A stretch of 64,000 nt of DNA. It comes from Escherichia coli. Lineage in GTDB: Bacteria > Pseudomonadota > Gammaproteobacteria > Enterobacterales > Enterobacteriaceae. Numbering within the stretch: the stretch's first letter is position 1; every line of letters begins with the position of its first letter. Shown piece after piece: positions 59,097 to 62,416 of this stretch. The notes under the pieces were generated by a model. That model was not told where the DNA came from. It saw nothing but the letters and a program-made list of their open reading frames with translations, and searched no databases. The DNA is taken from NCBI RefSeq assembly GCF_050920415.1, contig NZ_CP169309.1; one strand, 5' to 3'. A program made the position numbers and the translations under genes.

Positions 59097-59987
59097 ATGA
59101 TGTTTAAGCAATACCTGCAAGTAACGAAACCAGGCATCATCTTTGGCAACCTGATCTCGGTGATTGGGGGATTCCTGCTGGCCTCAAAGGGCAGCATTGA
59201 TTATCCCCTGTTTATCTACACGCTGGTTGGGGTGTCACTGGTTGTGGCGTCGGGTTGTGTGTTTAACAACTACATCGACAGGGATATCGACAGAAAGATG
59301 GAAAGGACGAAGAATCGGGTGCTGGTTAAAGGCCTGATCTCTCCTGCTGTCTCGCTGGTGTACGCCACCTTGCTGGGTATTGCTGGCTTTATGCTGCTGT
59401 GGTTTGGCGCGAATCCGCTGGCCTGCTGGCTGGGGGTGATGGGCTTTGTGGTTTATGTCGGCGTTTACAGCCTGTACATGAAACGCCACTCGGTCTACGG
59501 CACGTTGATTGGTTCGCTCTCCGGCGCAGCGCCGCCGGTGATTGGCTACTGTGCAGTGACAGGCGAGTTCGATAGCGGCGCAGCAATCCTGTTGGCTATC
59601 TTCAGCCTGTGGCAGATGCCTCATTCTTATGCCATCGCCATTTTCCGCTTTAAGGATTATCAGGCGGCAAACATTCCGGTACTGCCGGTGGTGAAAGGCA
59701 TTTCGGTAGCGAAAAACCACATCACGCTGTATATCATCGCCTTTGCTGTTGCCACACTGATGCTCTCTCTTGGCGGTTACGCAGGATATAAATATCTGGT
59801 GGTCGCCGCGGCGGTTAGCGTCTGGTGGTTAGGTATGGCCCTGCGTGGTTATAAAGTTGCTGATGATCGAATCTGGGCACGCAAGCTGTTCGGCTTCTCG
59901 ATCATCGCCATCACTGCCCTCTCGGTAATGATGTCCGTTGATTTTATGGTGCCGGACTCACATACGCTGCTGGCTGCTGTGTGGTAA
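59097..59987 (+). CDS. cyoE: Protohaem IX farnesyltransferase (haem O synthase, 296 aa)
   Basis: Starts [18 protein letters not shown]; UbiA-family motif [15 protein letters not shown]. Confidence 0.92.
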
Positions 59988-60001
59988 CACAACCTCTCTA
60001 T

Positions 60002-60029
60002 AAAAAAGGTGCTACGGCACCTTTTTTAT
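60002..60029 (+). terminator. Rho-independent terminator of the cyo operon (AAGGTGC-TACG-GCACCTT then T-run)
   Basis: Perfect 7-bp stem, 4-nt loop, T-run, 15 bp after the cyoE stop. Confidence 0.8.
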
Positions 60030-60040
60030 TGTCTGAGAAC

Positions 60041-60067
60041 AGAGATACGGCTAATAACCGTATCTCT
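60041..60067. promoter_or_regulatory. Operator-like palindrome 1 (AGAGATACGG-CTAATAA-CCGTATCTCT) abutting the -35 of the toxin-antitoxin promoter
   Basis: Perfect 10-bp arms with a 7-bp spacer; shares the ATACGG/CCGTAT core with palindrome 2. Confidence 0.6.
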
Positions 60068-60095
60068 TGACAGAGTGAGTATATGAACATAAATT
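60067..60095 (+). promoter_or_regulatory. Putative sigma70 promoter of the toxin-antitoxin operon: -35 TTGACA (60067-60072), 17-bp spacer, -10 TAAATT (60090-60095)
   Basis: Consensus -35 hexamer and optimal spacing read directly; about 75 bp upstream of the antitoxin ATG. Confidence 0.6.
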
Positions 60096-60099
60096 AATC

Positions 60100-60118
60100 A
60101 TACGGTTGATAGCCGTAT
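60100..60118. promoter_or_regulatory. Operator-like palindrome 2 (ATACGG-TTGATAG-CCGTAT) just downstream of the -10, over the predicted transcription start
   Basis: 6-bp arms with a 7-bp spacer, same half-site as palindrome 1. Confidence 0.6.
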
Positions 60119-60171
60119 TATGCATGAGATCGACTCCCTACGATTTCATTCAGTTAATCAAAGAGGTCATA

Positions 60172-60483
60172 ATGCCTGGAAAAACAGTCGCTCTACCCGA
60201 TATCGATAAAACGCTGAAAAATGCGCGGGTTGAACTCAAAACCAGTCCCGACGCCAAAAACAAACTTCGTGAAGCTGCGCAAGCCGTTGGGGTAGATTTA
60301 AGCGCTTTTATTTTGAGCGCAGCTATGGAACGCGCCGAAAGTGTGCTTGATAACCAACGTCGCCGTGAGCTTTCGAATCAAAGCTGGGAACTGATGAACC
60401 AACTCATCGCTGAACCTGCTCAACCGACGCTCGCCCTCAAGGCGTTAATGAAAAGGAAAAACAGCGATGGTCGACAAGCATGA
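60172..60483 (+). CDS. DUF1778-family ribbon-helix-helix antitoxin (TacA/AtaR/ItaR/KacA-like), 103 aa
   Basis: AAGAGG ribosome-binding site 6 nt upstream of the ATG; sequence fits the family pattern (VELKTSPDAKNKLREAAQAVGVDLSAFILSAAMERAESVLDNQRRRELSNQSWELM); overlaps the toxin start by 17 nt. The track ORF at 60106 is an upstream extension. Confidence 0.8.
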   Translation: MPGKTVALPDIDKTLKNARVELKTSPDAKNKLREAAQAVGVDLSAFILSAAMERAESVLDNQRRRELSNQSWELMNQLIAEPAQPTLALKALMKRKNSDGRQA

Positions 60484-61009
60484 AGAGATTACTCTGCCCA
60501 TAGTCCTCTCCTGTAATTATCAGTCTGATATTACTTATCCTGGGCAAAAACAGTTTGATTGCGGTAACCCTGTTATCGATAAATTTGTACGCGCATCGCT
60601 AAAGAAAAGTGTGCGTAATAGCGACTGTGCTGCTAAAGCACTTATTGACAGACAAAGTGGTGAACTGATTGGCATCTGTACTTTTACGGCATATTCGCTG
60701 GAAAAACAACGCGTTTCTGGCGTCCTTCAGGGTTCACAACCTTCAGAGATTGGTGTTGTCAGATTAGTCATGTTAGGGGTAGCGCGGAAATATCAAAAGC
60801 GGGGCTTTGGTCAGGACCTACTATGTGATTTTTTTGAACATGTAAAAATAATTCACCGGGCATTACCAATTAAAGGGGTTTATCTTGATGCTGACCCTGC
60901 CGCCATTAACTTTTATACTCGTCTCGGCTTTGTTCAGCTTTCAGCGAGGCCCAATGTTTTCGGTGCTGTACCGATGTTTTTAGCGATTCAGCATATTCTC
61001 GCGGCTTAG
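60467..61009 (+). CDS. GNAT-family acetyltransferase toxin (TacT/AtaT/ItaT/KacT-like), 180 aa; predicted aminoacyl-tRNA acetyltransferase
   Basis: N-terminal FDCG motif typical of these toxins, acetyl-CoA motif A (QKRGFGQ), C-terminal YxxLGF; ATG overlaps the antitoxin 3' end. Confidence 0.8.
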   Translation: MVDKHEEITLPIVLSCNYQSDITYPGQKQFDCGNPVIDKFVRASLKKSVRNSDCAAKALIDRQSGELIGICTFTAYSLEKQRVSGVLQGSQPSEIGVVRLVMLGVARKYQKRGFGQDLLCDFFEHVKIIHRALPIKGVYLDADPAAINFYTRLGFVQLSARPNVFGAVPMFLAIQHILAA

Positions 61010-61253
61010 ATTTTTATCGCCTCCGGCCATGGCAAGTTTTGCCTCAGCCGGAGACTGAACAGCGTTACCACTTTTGTTCAATTGCCCCCGCTTTCATCAG
61101 GTCCACATCCTTGCCTTTAATGGTTGCCGTTGCGGCAACGATCGTGGTCCTTATAGCTGCACAAGATTTTCGTTCAAATTCCGGTTTATAAAGAATAAGC
61201 AACGAATTACTGGTAAATGAATCAAGCCGGTAATCTGTAAAGTTAATATCCAG

Positions 61254-62000
61254 TCAGTTTAAGCCGAAAGGTGCAAAGCCGACCGTTTGAATAGTTTCCT
61301 TACCTGACGGACTCTTGATGTTGTACGTAACACGAAGATTGGCCACTTCGCCTAATTTATTGGTTTTGGCAAAGAGGCTATCCATGCAGGAAAAACCTTT
61401 ATCTAAAAAATTATCCCGCATTCCAGAACGGGTAATCGTGATCACCGGTAACGTATCGTCAACCGTTTTTCTGTCAATCATATCTTTTCGACAGGCGGCC
61501 ATAAAGTCTTCCGGACCAGCATAAATGTGAACACCCTTATCAAGATATTCTTTCGCTTTACTACAATCCACCTCGACATACTGACCATTGGCGTACATCA
61601 TGCCCAACCTGGACCATGCTAAATTCACACCGCGTTGCGTAGCCTGATTAAATAACGCATACGCTTTGGCATAATCCACCCGCACCTGTTCACCTTCGTA
61701 GTAGATATCCCCCAGCGCTAACGGAGCTTCTTCATCACCTTGTTTAGCGGCTAACTCGAACCATTTAATGGCTTCCGGAACGTTGGGTTTGGTATCGTAG
61801 CGGGGCTGATAATATTCCCAGCCTAACAGGCTTTGCGCGTCGACATCCCCCGACTCAGCCATTTTATGCAGTGTCCTTATCACATCGGGGGCAGGCTTTT
61901 CACTGTATATGCTGTCATACAATTCATGCGCTTTCTCGCTTGCCAGTGAACCTTGTGAGGCAATTAATAAAATAGCCAATAAACTCTTTTTATTTAACAT
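61254..62000 (-). CDS. Secreted Sel1-repeat (TPR-like) protein with an unassigned C-terminal domain of about 85 aa (248 aa)
   Basis: N-terminal signal peptide (MLNKKSLLAILLIASQGSLA|SE), about three Sel1-like repeats (e.g. LGDIYYEGEQVRVDYAKAYALFNQATQRG, LGMMYANGQYVEVDCSKAKEYLDKG); the C-terminal 85 aa has no motif I recognise. Confidence 0.75.
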   Translation of the reverse strand: MLNKKSLLAILLIASQGSLASEKAHELYDSIYSEKPAPDVIRTLHKMAESGDVDAQSLLGWEYYQPRYDTKPNVPEAIKWFELAAKQGDEEAPLALGDIYYEGEQVRVDYAKAYALFNQATQRGVNLAWSRLGMMYANGQYVEVDCSKAKEYLDKGVHIYAGPEDFMAACRKDMIDRKTVDDTLPVITITRSGMRDNFLDKGFSCMDSLFAKTNKLGEVANLRVTYNIKSPSGKETIQTVGFAPFGLN

Positions 62001-62416
62001 AAATAACCTTTATGCATCCATCACTGTATTTTTCAATATACCTAACCACCAAACATCCACTTCATGAATAAATACACAGCCATAACAACCTCAGGTAATA
62101 AGCAAACATTTAAGCTGAAGCAGAATAACCAGCACCGCCAACACCTCTATTTATTGCGATAAAATAACACCATCCTTTAATAAAAAATCACACGCTCATC
62201 AACAAATCCGAAAATAATATCATTCGTGGCAGGATAAAATCAGGCGAGCTTTTCATTTGTTATATTTAACGCGCAAAGTATTAATGGCAAGAATACGAGA
62301 GAAGCGCATGCCTGACGTAAAAATCACGCTCTTATGTAATATTTACTCATTAACACTCTGTTTACCCAACATGCGCTCCGCACTACACTATGTGGGCAAT
62401 TTTTTAAGAGGTGGTA

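What the first reader, a model, noticed from the sequence alone, without database searches (positions are those of the whole stretch)
60041..60118. Two palindromes with shared ATACGG-N7-CCGTAT core bracket the toxin-antitoxin promoter
A perfect 10-bp-arm palindrome (AGAGATACGG-N7-CCGTATCTCT) abuts a consensus -35 TTGACA, and a second palindrome with the same half-site (ATACGG-N7-CCGTAT) sits just after the -10 TAAATT, over the predicted transcription start. This is the layout expected for autorepression by an RHH antitoxin or toxin-antitoxin complex binding two operators. The repeated half-site is read directly; its role as operator is inference.
Basis: partly seen in the sequence, partly recalled or inferred. 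Interest (0 to 1): 0.6.

Follow-up and report, generated by a model that had tools for sequence, protein, structure and literature searches.

The report
Twin operators of the itaRT toxin-antitoxin promoter
The two palindromes are real and are almost certainly the repressor-binding sites through which the known E. coli ItaR-ItaT toxin-antitoxin pair shuts off its own promoter, so this is a correct but largely expected feature of a well-studied family.

Summary
ATACGG-N7-CCGTAT occurs exactly twice in the 64-kb window, at 60045-60063 and 60100-60118 (0.07 expected by chance). The two copies flank a 10/12 sigma-70 promoter (-35 at 60067-60072, -10 at 60090-60095).

The operon is itaRT, a known E. 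coli GNAT/RHH toxin-antitoxin pair. The toxin is 97% identical to ItaT of PDB 7BYY. Published work shows that the ItaR-ItaT complex, but not ItaR alone, represses the upstream region. I found no paper that maps the operators.

All 24 related loci from other genera carry RTACGG-N7-CCGTAY upstream of the antitoxin gene. Thirteen Enterobacterales loci, this window among them, carry two copies 54-60 bp apart. One copy sits 3-4 nt before TTGAC and the other 3-9 nt after the -10.

The promoter-proximal site matches, in sequence and position, the operators of KacA and AtaR (GTACGG-N7-CCGTAC, 4 nt after the -10). The KacA operator has been crystallised with a T-A2-A2-T hexamer.

Only the 19-bp core is conserved. 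The AGAG/CTCT arm extension is specific to this allele.

The sites are new members of a known kind of operator, and interest is low to moderate.

The parts
60045..60063 (.). Distal operator O1, conserved 19-bp core ATACGGCTAATAACCGTAT. In this allele the palindrome extends to 60041-60067 with perfect 10-nt arms.
   Evidence: Exact motif match. The equivalent site lies 3-4 nt upstream of an invariant TTGAC in 13 of 13 two-site Enterobacterales loci. The outer AGAG/CTCT carries almost no information (IC 0.1-0.3), and the major E. coli allele reads CCGTATGTCT.
60067..60072 (+). -35 hexamer TTGACA
   Evidence: Promoter scan, 10 of 12 matches with a 17-nt spacer. TTGAC is invariant in the alignment of 13 orthologous promoters.
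60090..60095 (+). -10 hexamer TAAATT
   Evidence: Promoter scan. Orthologues carry TAGATT, TAAATT or TACAGT at the aligned position.
60100..60118 (.). Proximal operator O2, ATACGGTTGATAGCCGTAT. It covers the expected transcription start (about 60101-60103, inferred from the -10).
   Evidence: Exact motif match. It starts 4 nt after the -10, the same gap as the kacAT operator (TATATT-AAAT-GTACGG) and the ataRT operator (TATGCT-TAAT-GTACGG). The KacA palindrome is reported to span the kacAT transcription start (PMC6698736).
60161..60166 (+). Shine-Dalgarno sequence AAGAGG of itaR, 5 nt before the ATG
   Evidence: Read from the sequence.
60172..60483 (+). itaR, a 103-aa RHH antitoxin of the DUF1778/TacA1 family
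   Evidence: Pfam TacA1 PF08681, E=1.3e-17. PDB KacA 5ZGN_A, E=3.5e-11. The beta-strand segment KNARVELKTS is invariant in 20 homologues.
60467..61009 (+). itaT, a 180-aa GNAT aminoacyl-tRNA acetyltransferase toxin. It overlaps itaR by 17 nt.
   Evidence: Matches PDB 7BYY at E=1.3e-115, about 97% identity. 7BYY is ItaT(G115D) of E. coli HS (PMC7367177).

Best explanation
The two 19-bp palindromes are the operators of the itaRT promoter.

Each is most likely bound by one ItaT-ItaR2-ItaR2-ItaT heterohexamer. The two RHH dimers of a hexamer would insert their beta-sheets into successive major grooves, centred on the CpG of each TACGG half-site. These centres are 11 bp apart across a narrow AT-rich centre.

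O1 lies at about -57 to -39 and ends 3 nt before the -35. O2 lies at about -2 to +17. Together they clamp the promoter from both sides, so that RNA polymerase can neither dock at the -35 nor open and clear the start site.

The toxin acts as co-repressor because it fixes two ItaR dimers at the spacing of the two half-sites.

What is shown: the sequence features, their conservation, their identity with the KacA and AtaR operators, and (from the literature, for the E. coli HS allele) repression by the complex only. What is inferred: the binding stoichiometry, occupancy of both sites, and the position of the transcription start.
For: - The motif is unique to this spot in the window and frames a strong sigma-70 promoter.
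- All 24 related loci found in other genera (42-86% antitoxin identity) carry RTACGG-N7-CCGTAY upstream of the antitoxin gene. A scan of each whole 3.3-kb locus at up to 2 mismatches gave only one hit elsewhere.
- Thirteen promoters (this window plus 12 other Enterobacterales loci) have two copies with the same geometry: O1, then 3-4 nt, then TTGAC; the -10, then 3-9 nt, then O2; spacing 54-60 bp. Between these islands the sequence is unconserved.
- A logo built from 38 sites has 1.8-2.0 bits at TACGG and CCGTA and about 0 bits just outside the 19-mer.
- The kacAT and ataRT promoters carry GTACGG-N7-CCGTAC 4 nt after their -10.
- The DNA crystallised with KacAT is AAATGTACGGTTATTAACCGTACATGA. 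KacA R8, D10 and R12 contact G5, C8, G9, G10 and their partner bases, which are positions 1, 4, 5 and 6 of the hexamer.
- ItaR has R19, E21 and K23 at the aligned positions, and these are invariant in its clade.
- Wilcox et al. 2018: the 172-bp upstream region drives about 40-fold expression. ItaR co-expressed with ItaT represses it almost to background, while ItaR alone has no effect.
- Salmonella TacAT binds two separate sites in its promoter by EMSA.
Against: - No binding, footprint or transcription-start data exist for ItaRT at these sites in any paper I could read.
- The published reporter fragment is given as '-183 to -11' with an ambiguous reference point, so it is not certain that O2 was inside it.
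- ItaR has Lys where KacA has Arg12, and Glu where KacA has Asp10. It also carries about 11 extra N-terminal residues, so the contacts may differ in detail.
- The O1-O2 spacing varies from 54 to 60 bp (mode 57, about 5.4 turns). This argues against a fixed in-phase contact between the two bound complexes, so cooperation between the sites is unproven.
- Xenorhabdus relatives keep only one full palindrome, so two sites are not obligatory.
Confidence: 0.85

Rival explanations
1. Only the proximal palindrome O2 is the working operator, as in kacAT and ataRT. O1 would then be a non-essential or vestigial duplicate with little effect on transcription.
For: The KacA-type and AtaR promoters examined have a single full palindrome, placed after the -10. 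One hexamer over the start site is enough for repression in those systems (PMC6698736).
Against: O1 is as well conserved as O2 in 13 of 13 two-site loci, with a fixed 3-4 nt gap to the -35. In Xenorhabdus it is the -35-proximal site that survives while the downstream one has decayed. Salmonella TacAT uses two sites.
Confidence: 0.08
2. The palindromes act as RNA or DNA hairpins rather than protein-binding sites. Palindrome 1 would be a second terminator or insulator after cyoE, and palindrome 2 a 5'-end stem-loop that stabilises or attenuates the itaRT mRNA.
For: Both can form stem-loops. The terminator scan flags 60118-60100 on the minus strand as a weak terminator-like site.
Against: - The primary sequence of the arms is conserved (TACGG in 37-38 of 38 sites), not merely their pairing.
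- Where arms vary, they vary independently. At positions 1/19, 9 of 33 distinct sites are the non-pairing A..C, and positions 7/13 include C..A and T..T.
- No T-run follows palindrome 1.
- The real cyoE terminator is 60000-60029 and is shared with K-12, which lacks the palindromes.
- A start at about 60102 would leave palindrome 2's left arm out of the RNA.
- No Rfam family matches.
Confidence: 0.02
3. The sites are shared targets, read by other DUF1778 antitoxins in the same cell (AtaR/KacA-type, often plasmid-borne) as well as, or instead of, ItaR. The promoter would then be wired into cross-regulation between GNAT/RHH systems.
For: The core RTACGG-N7-CCGTAY is common to ItaR-type, KacA, AtaR and three plasmid KacA-like promoters, even though antitoxin identity is only about 29-37%. 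KacA-like genes are found on 600 plasmids, 276 of them from Escherichia.
Against: The ItaR clade conserves extra inner positions (C7, T8 / A12, G13) that the KacA/AtaR-type sites lack, which suggests insulation between the systems. The genome identical to this window at this locus has no ataRT between livJ and panM. No cross-binding data exist.
Confidence: 0.05

Closest known systems
kacAT operator of Klebsiella pneumoniae (KacT-KacA2-KacA2-KacT hexamer on a 27-bp palindrome, PDB 5ZGN; PMC6698736)
   Same: - Same antitoxin fold (DUF1778 RHH) and a GNAT toxin.
- Same half-site hexamer and N7 spacing (GTACGG-N7-CCGTAC against ATACGG-N7-CCGTAT), with an AT-rich centre.
- Same 4-nt gap after the -10, so the site spans the transcription start.
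- Equivalent beta-strand contact residues (R8/D10/R12 against R19/E21/K23).
   Different: - kacAT has a single palindrome, whereas itaRT has a second one upstream of the -35.
- ItaR and KacA share only about 36% identity.
- The outermost base is A rather than G, and Lys replaces Arg12.
- ItaR-clade sites also conserve C7, T8 / A12, G13.
- KacA alone binds DNA weakly, whereas ItaR alone gave no repression in vivo.
ataRT operator of E. coli O157:H7 (AtaT-AtaR4-AtaT hexamer)
   Same: The palindrome GTACGGTGACATACCGTAC lies 4 nt after TATGCT in the O157:H7 locus. A hexamer binding one palindrome, with toxin:antitoxin-ratio-dependent regulation, is reported in PMC6698736 and PMC8138530.
   Different: It has one full palindrome plus an extra downstream ATACGG half-site, and no site upstream of the -35. 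It sits at a different chromosomal locus (livJ-panM). I could not read the primary AtaRT-DNA paper.
tacAT promoter of Salmonella enterica (two binding sites by EMSA; PMC5449658)
   Same: Two separable binding sites for the toxin-antitoxin complex lie within about 80 bp upstream of the antitoxin gene. The toxin is needed for tight repression: tacA expression rises 28.6-fold in a tacT deletion.
   Different: TacA is only distantly related to ItaR (PDB 7AK7_C, E=0.053). I could not compare its site sequences here. TacA acetylation alters its DNA binding, whereas no acetylation of ItaR was detected.
Generic type II toxin-antitoxin autoregulation by RHH antitoxins (RelBE, CcdAB, ParD, FitAB; conditional cooperativity)
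   Same: An RHH dimer-of-dimers binds a palindromic operator that overlaps the promoter, with the toxin as co-repressor (reviewed in PMC8138530).
   Different: Different antitoxin families and different operator sequences. Conditional cooperativity has not been tested for ItaRT.

Membership tests
GNAT/DUF1778 (TacAT, AtaRT, KacAT, ItaRT) type II toxin-antitoxin operon | Upstream gene encodes a DUF1778/TacA1 ribbon-helix-helix antitoxin | tested here: met
   Pfam TacA1 PF08681, E=1.3e-17, residues 19-96. PDB KacA E=3.5e-11 and AtaR E=8.6e-09.
GNAT/DUF1778 (TacAT, AtaRT, KacAT, ItaRT) type II toxin-antitoxin operon | Downstream, overlapping gene encodes a GNAT aminoacyl-tRNA acetyltransferase toxin | tested here: met
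   Matches ItaT of PDB 7BYY at E=1.3e-115, about 97% identity over 180 aa. The genes overlap by 17 nt. Toxicity and tRNA acetylation were shown for the E. coli HS allele in PMC6125619 and were not tested here.
KacA/AtaR-type operator (palindrome bound by a T-A2-A2-T hexamer) | Palindrome with GTACGG-like half-sites separated by 7 AT-rich bp | tested here: met
   ATACGG-CTAATAA-CCGTAT and ATACGG-TTGATAG-CCGTAT, compared with kacAT GTACGG-AAAATAA-CCGTAC, the crystallised GTACGG-TTATTAA-CCGTAC and ataRT GTACGG-TGACATA-CCGTAC. The outermost base differs (A for G).
KacA/AtaR-type operator (palindrome bound by a T-A2-A2-T hexamer) | Palindrome lies just after the -10 and spans the transcription start | tested here: inconclusive
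   Met at the sequence level for O2: the gap from the -10 hexamer is 4 nt in itaRT, kacAT and ataRT. The itaRT transcription start is only predicted. O1 has no counterpart in kacAT or ataRT.
KacA/AtaR-type operator (palindrome bound by a T-A2-A2-T hexamer) | Beta-strand residues that read the bases (KacA R8, D10, R12) are present | tested here: met
   ItaR has R19, E21 and K23 at the aligned positions, one identical and two conservative changes. They are invariant in 20 ItaR-clade sequences.
KacA/AtaR-type operator (palindrome bound by a T-A2-A2-T hexamer) | Toxin and antitoxin form a T2A4 hexamer that binds the palindrome | not testable with these tools
   ItaR and ItaT co-purify in apparently stoichiometric amounts (PMC6125619). 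The oligomeric state and DNA binding are unknown.
Autorepressed type II toxin-antitoxin promoter | The toxin-antitoxin complex represses transcription from its own upstream region | not testable with these tools
   Reported for the E. coli HS allele: about 40-fold promoter activity, repressed almost to background by ItaR plus ItaT and unaffected by ItaR alone. This window's promoter region is 96.5% identical to the common E. coli allele, and all 5 differences lie outside the two cores and both hexamers. I did not verify that E. coli HS itself carries that common allele.

The most novel reading that the evidence does not exclude
The second, -35-proximal operator is a clade-specific addition that makes itaRT-type promoters a two-hexamer switch. 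The clade's extended half-site (RTACGGCT) would insulate these promoters from co-resident AtaR/KacA-type antitoxins that read the same TACGG core; alternatively, it would fail to insulate them, giving cross-regulation between chromosomal and plasmid GNAT/RHH systems.

The typical 57-bp spacing (about 5.4 turns) would place the two complexes on nearly opposite faces of the DNA. That suggests independent, stepwise occupancy and therefore a graded rather than all-or-none response to the toxin:antitoxin ratio.
Probability: 0.2. Interest if true: 0.45.

Novelty: new member of a known kind. Interest (0 to 1): 0.25.

Why it matters
It pins the autoregulation of ItaRT to two defined 19-bp sites. ItaRT is present in about a quarter of complete E. 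coli genomes, including BL21. The sites give precise targets for footprinting and for point mutations, with the invariant CG of each half-site as the obvious place to start.

The comparison also shows that one operator grammar, RTACGG-N7-CCGTAY placed at the transcription start, is shared by DUF1778 antitoxins as far apart as ItaR, KacA, AtaR and Nitrospirae relatives. That raises a testable question: do co-resident GNAT/RHH systems cross-regulate each other's promoters? None of this changes how the family is understood to work.

Tried and rejected
- **Rfam:** a scan of 59900-60300 at E up to 1 gave only sub-threshold sRNA hits over the cyoE 3' end, so no known RNA element explains the palindromes.
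- **NCBIfam:** it gave no informative family for ItaR, ItaT or the Sel1-like protein.
- **E. coli population variation:** the promoter region is 95.7-100% identical in 1368 genomes. The 5 differences between this allele and the common one all fall outside the cores and hexamers. By my own arithmetic that has a chance probability of about 0.11, so it proves little.
- **Papers not held:** the primary AtaRT-DNA paper (Jurenas 2019) and the TacAT3-DNA paper (Grabe 2021).
- **Wilcox 2018 primer table:** it is not held, so I could not fix the exact reporter fragment.
- **Later ItaT and GNAT papers:** none mention an operator.
- **Co-residence with ataRT:** the genome identical to this window at this locus has livJ directly next to panM, with no ataRT there.
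- **Hairpin or terminator reading:** I considered it and rejected it for the reasons given under rival explanations.

Full report
**Observation.** The sequence at 60041-60118 is as described. AGAGATACGG-CTAATAA-CCGTATCTCT occupies 60041-60067 and ATACGG-TTGATAG-CCGTAT occupies 60100-60118. With up to one mismatch, ATACGG-N7-CCGTAT matches only these two places in the 64-kb window; 0.07 matches are expected, and no shuffle out of 100 reached two. The promoter scan reports TTGACA, 17 nt, TAAATT (10 of 12) at 60067-60095. The -35 therefore shares its first T with the last base of the extended arm, and palindrome 2 begins 4 nt after the -10. The 'N7' is AT-rich and partly palindromic. A perfect 13-bp-arm terminator for cyoE lies just upstream at 60000-60029.

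**What the locus is.** The palindromes precede a 103-aa ORF (60172-60483) with a Shine-Dalgarno sequence, and an overlapping 180-aa ORF (60467-61009). The first is a DUF1778/TacA1 ribbon-helix-helix protein: Pfam E=1.3e-17, with KacA and AtaR as its best solved relatives. The second is about 97% identical to PDB 7BYY, which is ItaT(G115D) of E. coli HS. The window is E. coli; its ItaR is 100% identical to a protein of strain IAI39.

The pair, together with a Sel1-repeat gene, forms a 2.3-kb island (60031-62337) between cyoE and yajR. K-12 lacks this island, and 1368 of 5426 complete E. coli genomes, BL21 among them, carry it. The island begins directly after the cyoE terminator, so both palindromes and the promoter belong to it.

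**What is already published.** Wilcox et al. 2018 (PMC6125619) cloned a 172-bp upstream region of itaRT before galK. It gave about 40-fold expression over the promoterless control. Co-expressing ItaR with ItaT, wild type or catalytically dead, reduced this almost to background, while ItaR alone had no effect. The words operator, palindrome and footprint do not occur in that paper. They are also absent from the later ItaT and GNAT papers I could read. [quoted passage not shown] A fragment ending at -11 from a true start would cut the -10 hexamer and should be inactive. I therefore infer that the numbering is from the start codon, which would give window 59989-60161 and include both palindromes. 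The primer table is not held, so this stays an inference.

**Comparative test.** The DNA-reading beta-strand segment KNARVELKTS is invariant in 20 ItaR homologues of 60-96% identity. This predicts that the operator should be conserved too. A scan of one genome per species returned 24 loci from Pseudocitrobacter, Rahnella, Buttiauxella, Phytobacter, Serratia, Kluyvera, Trabulsiella, Xenorhabdus, Nitrospirae and others, with 42-86% antitoxin identity. All but one have a GNAT gene downstream.

Every one of the 24 carries RTACGG-N7-CCGTAY upstream of the antitoxin gene. Scanning each whole 3.3-kb locus at up to 2 mismatches gave only one hit elsewhere. By my own arithmetic, about 0.02 exact matches would be expected by chance in that much sequence.

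Thirteen promoters (this window plus 12 other Enterobacterales loci) have two copies with one architecture:
- O1, then 3 nt (10 loci) or 4 nt (3 loci), then an invariant TTGAC.
- A -10 such as TAGATT, TAAATT or TACAGT.
- Then 3-9 nt, then O2.
- Start-to-start spacing of 54-60 bp, with a mode of 57.

In the alignment, only the two palindromes, TTGAC and the -10 are conserved. A logo from 38 sites gives RTACGGyT-nnn-ArCCGTAY, with 1.8-2.0 bits at TACGG and CCGTA and 0.1-0.3 bits immediately outside. The AGAG/CTCT extension that makes the 10-bp arms in this window is therefore not part of the conserved element. The commonest E. coli allele already has CCGTATGTCT.

**Link to solved operators.** I fetched three reference promoters:
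- The exact kacAT locus carries TATATT-AAAT-GTACGGAAAATAACCGTAC.
- The ataRT locus of E. coli O157:H7 carries TATGCT-TAAT-GTACGGTGACATACCGTAC.
- Three plasmid KacA-like loci carry GTACGG-N7-CCGTAC as well.

The window has TAAATT-AATC-ATACGGTTGATAGCCGTAT, that is, the same motif with the same 4-nt gap after the -10.

The DNA crystallised with KacAT is AAATGTACGGTTATTAACCGTACATGA. In that structure a KacT-KacA2-KacA2-KacT hexamer places one RHH dimer on each arm. R12 contacts G5; D10 contacts C8; R8 contacts G9 and the partner of C8; and D10' contacts the partner of G10. The central AT-rich minor groove is compressed, and the palindrome is said to span the transcription start. These contacted bases are positions 1, 4, 5 and 6 of the hexamer. 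In my logo, positions 4-6 are invariant or nearly so, and position 1 is R. ItaR has R19, E21 and K23 at the aligned positions.

O2 is thus the sequence and positional counterpart of a structurally validated operator. O1 is a second copy specific to the ItaR clade. Two binding sites are also reported for Salmonella TacAT by EMSA.

**Mechanism (inferred).** Taking the start as about 60102, O1 spans -57 to -39 and O2 spans -2 to +17. A 27-bp footprint like that of KacAT would cover 60041-60067, up to the first base of the -35. A second would cover 60096-60122, from just after the -10 to about +21. Two ItaT-ItaR4-ItaT hexamers would then block -35 recognition on one side, and open-complex formation and promoter clearance on the other.

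The toxin is a co-repressor because it holds two ItaR dimers at the 11-bp register of the two CpG centres. This fits the finding that ItaR alone does not repress. The variable, mostly out-of-phase spacing of 54-60 bp argues against an obligatory contact between the two bound complexes.

**Rivals.**
- An RNA or DNA hairpin role is unlikely. The arms are conserved in sequence rather than by covariation, and the variable positions break pairing freely: 9 of 33 distinct sites have A..C at positions 1/19. No T-run follows palindrome 1, and Rfam finds nothing.
- O1 could be dispensable, but it is as conserved as O2. In Xenorhabdus it is the -35-proximal site that survives.
- Cross-recognition by other DUF1778 antitoxins is possible because the core is shared. 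However, ItaR-clade sites conserve extra inner positions that KacA/AtaR sites lack. The genome identical to this window at this locus has no ataRT at livJ-panM.

**Verdict.** Three refinements apply: the complex, not the antitoxin alone, is the repressor; the conserved unit is a 19-bp core; and each palindrome probably holds two RHH dimers. The toxin-antitoxin system and its autorepression are known, and the operator grammar is that of solved relatives. What this analysis adds is the assignment of the two ItaRT operators and the conserved two-site architecture of the ItaR clade. I class it as a new member of a known kind, of low to moderate interest.

Noticed in passing
window 60000-60029; island 60031-62337: A perfect 13-bp-arm, A/T-flanked (bidirectional-looking) terminator follows cyoE and is shared with K-12. 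The itaRT plus Sel1-gene island starts immediately after it and replaces about 25 nt of the K-12 cyoE-yajR spacer. I did not look for flanking repeats or mobility genes in this window. One other strain has an IS1 inside the Sel1-like gene.
   Followed up: partly
window 61068-62000 (- strand): The Sel1/TPR-repeat gene next to itaT aligns in one frame over all 311 residues of the homologue in strain 573. However, the ORF in this window ends at 61254 (248 aa), which implies an in-frame stop and so a truncated gene or pseudogene. It is only about 85% identical to that homologue, against about 97% for itaR and itaT.
   Followed up: partly
window 60106-60483: A public annotation (E. coli IAI39, 125 aa) starts ItaR at the TTG at 60106, which lies inside operator O2. 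Homologues are 101-107 aa, and the ATG at 60172 has a Shine-Dalgarno sequence, so the long form is probably a start-codon misannotation.
   Followed up: partly
L032 355-385 (E. coli O157:H7 ataRT promoter): Besides the GTACGG-N7-CCGTAC palindrome, the ataRT leader has an extra ATACGG half-site beginning 6 nt after the palindrome (CCGTACATATTATACGGAG). Its role is unknown.
   Followed up: no
L005, L007, L013 (Edaphovirga, Rahnella, Serratia): In these loci the two operators lie 208-284 nt upstream of the antitoxin ATG, against 36-147 nt in the other two-site loci. This implies a long leader or an unrecognised small ORF between the promoter and the antitoxin gene.
   Followed up: no
L014, L017-L023 (Xenorhabdus): Only the palindrome next to a -35-like TTGC hexamer is intact. 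After the putative -10 (TATCTT or TATTCT), only a GTACAA or GTACGA remnant is left where O2 would be.
   Followed up: partly
L025-L027 (Nitrospirae MAGs): Distant relatives (42-47% antitoxin identity) carry one copy of the same palindrome directly after TTGACA, apparently within the -35/-10 spacer. This is a different placement of the same operator.
   Followed up: no
window 59964-60063: Sub-threshold Rfam hits to the Salmonella sRNAs STnc40 (21 bits, + strand) and STnc50 (23.5 bits, - strand) lie over the cyoE 3' end and terminator. Both are far below their gathering scores and are probably driven by the terminator hairpin.
   Followed up: no
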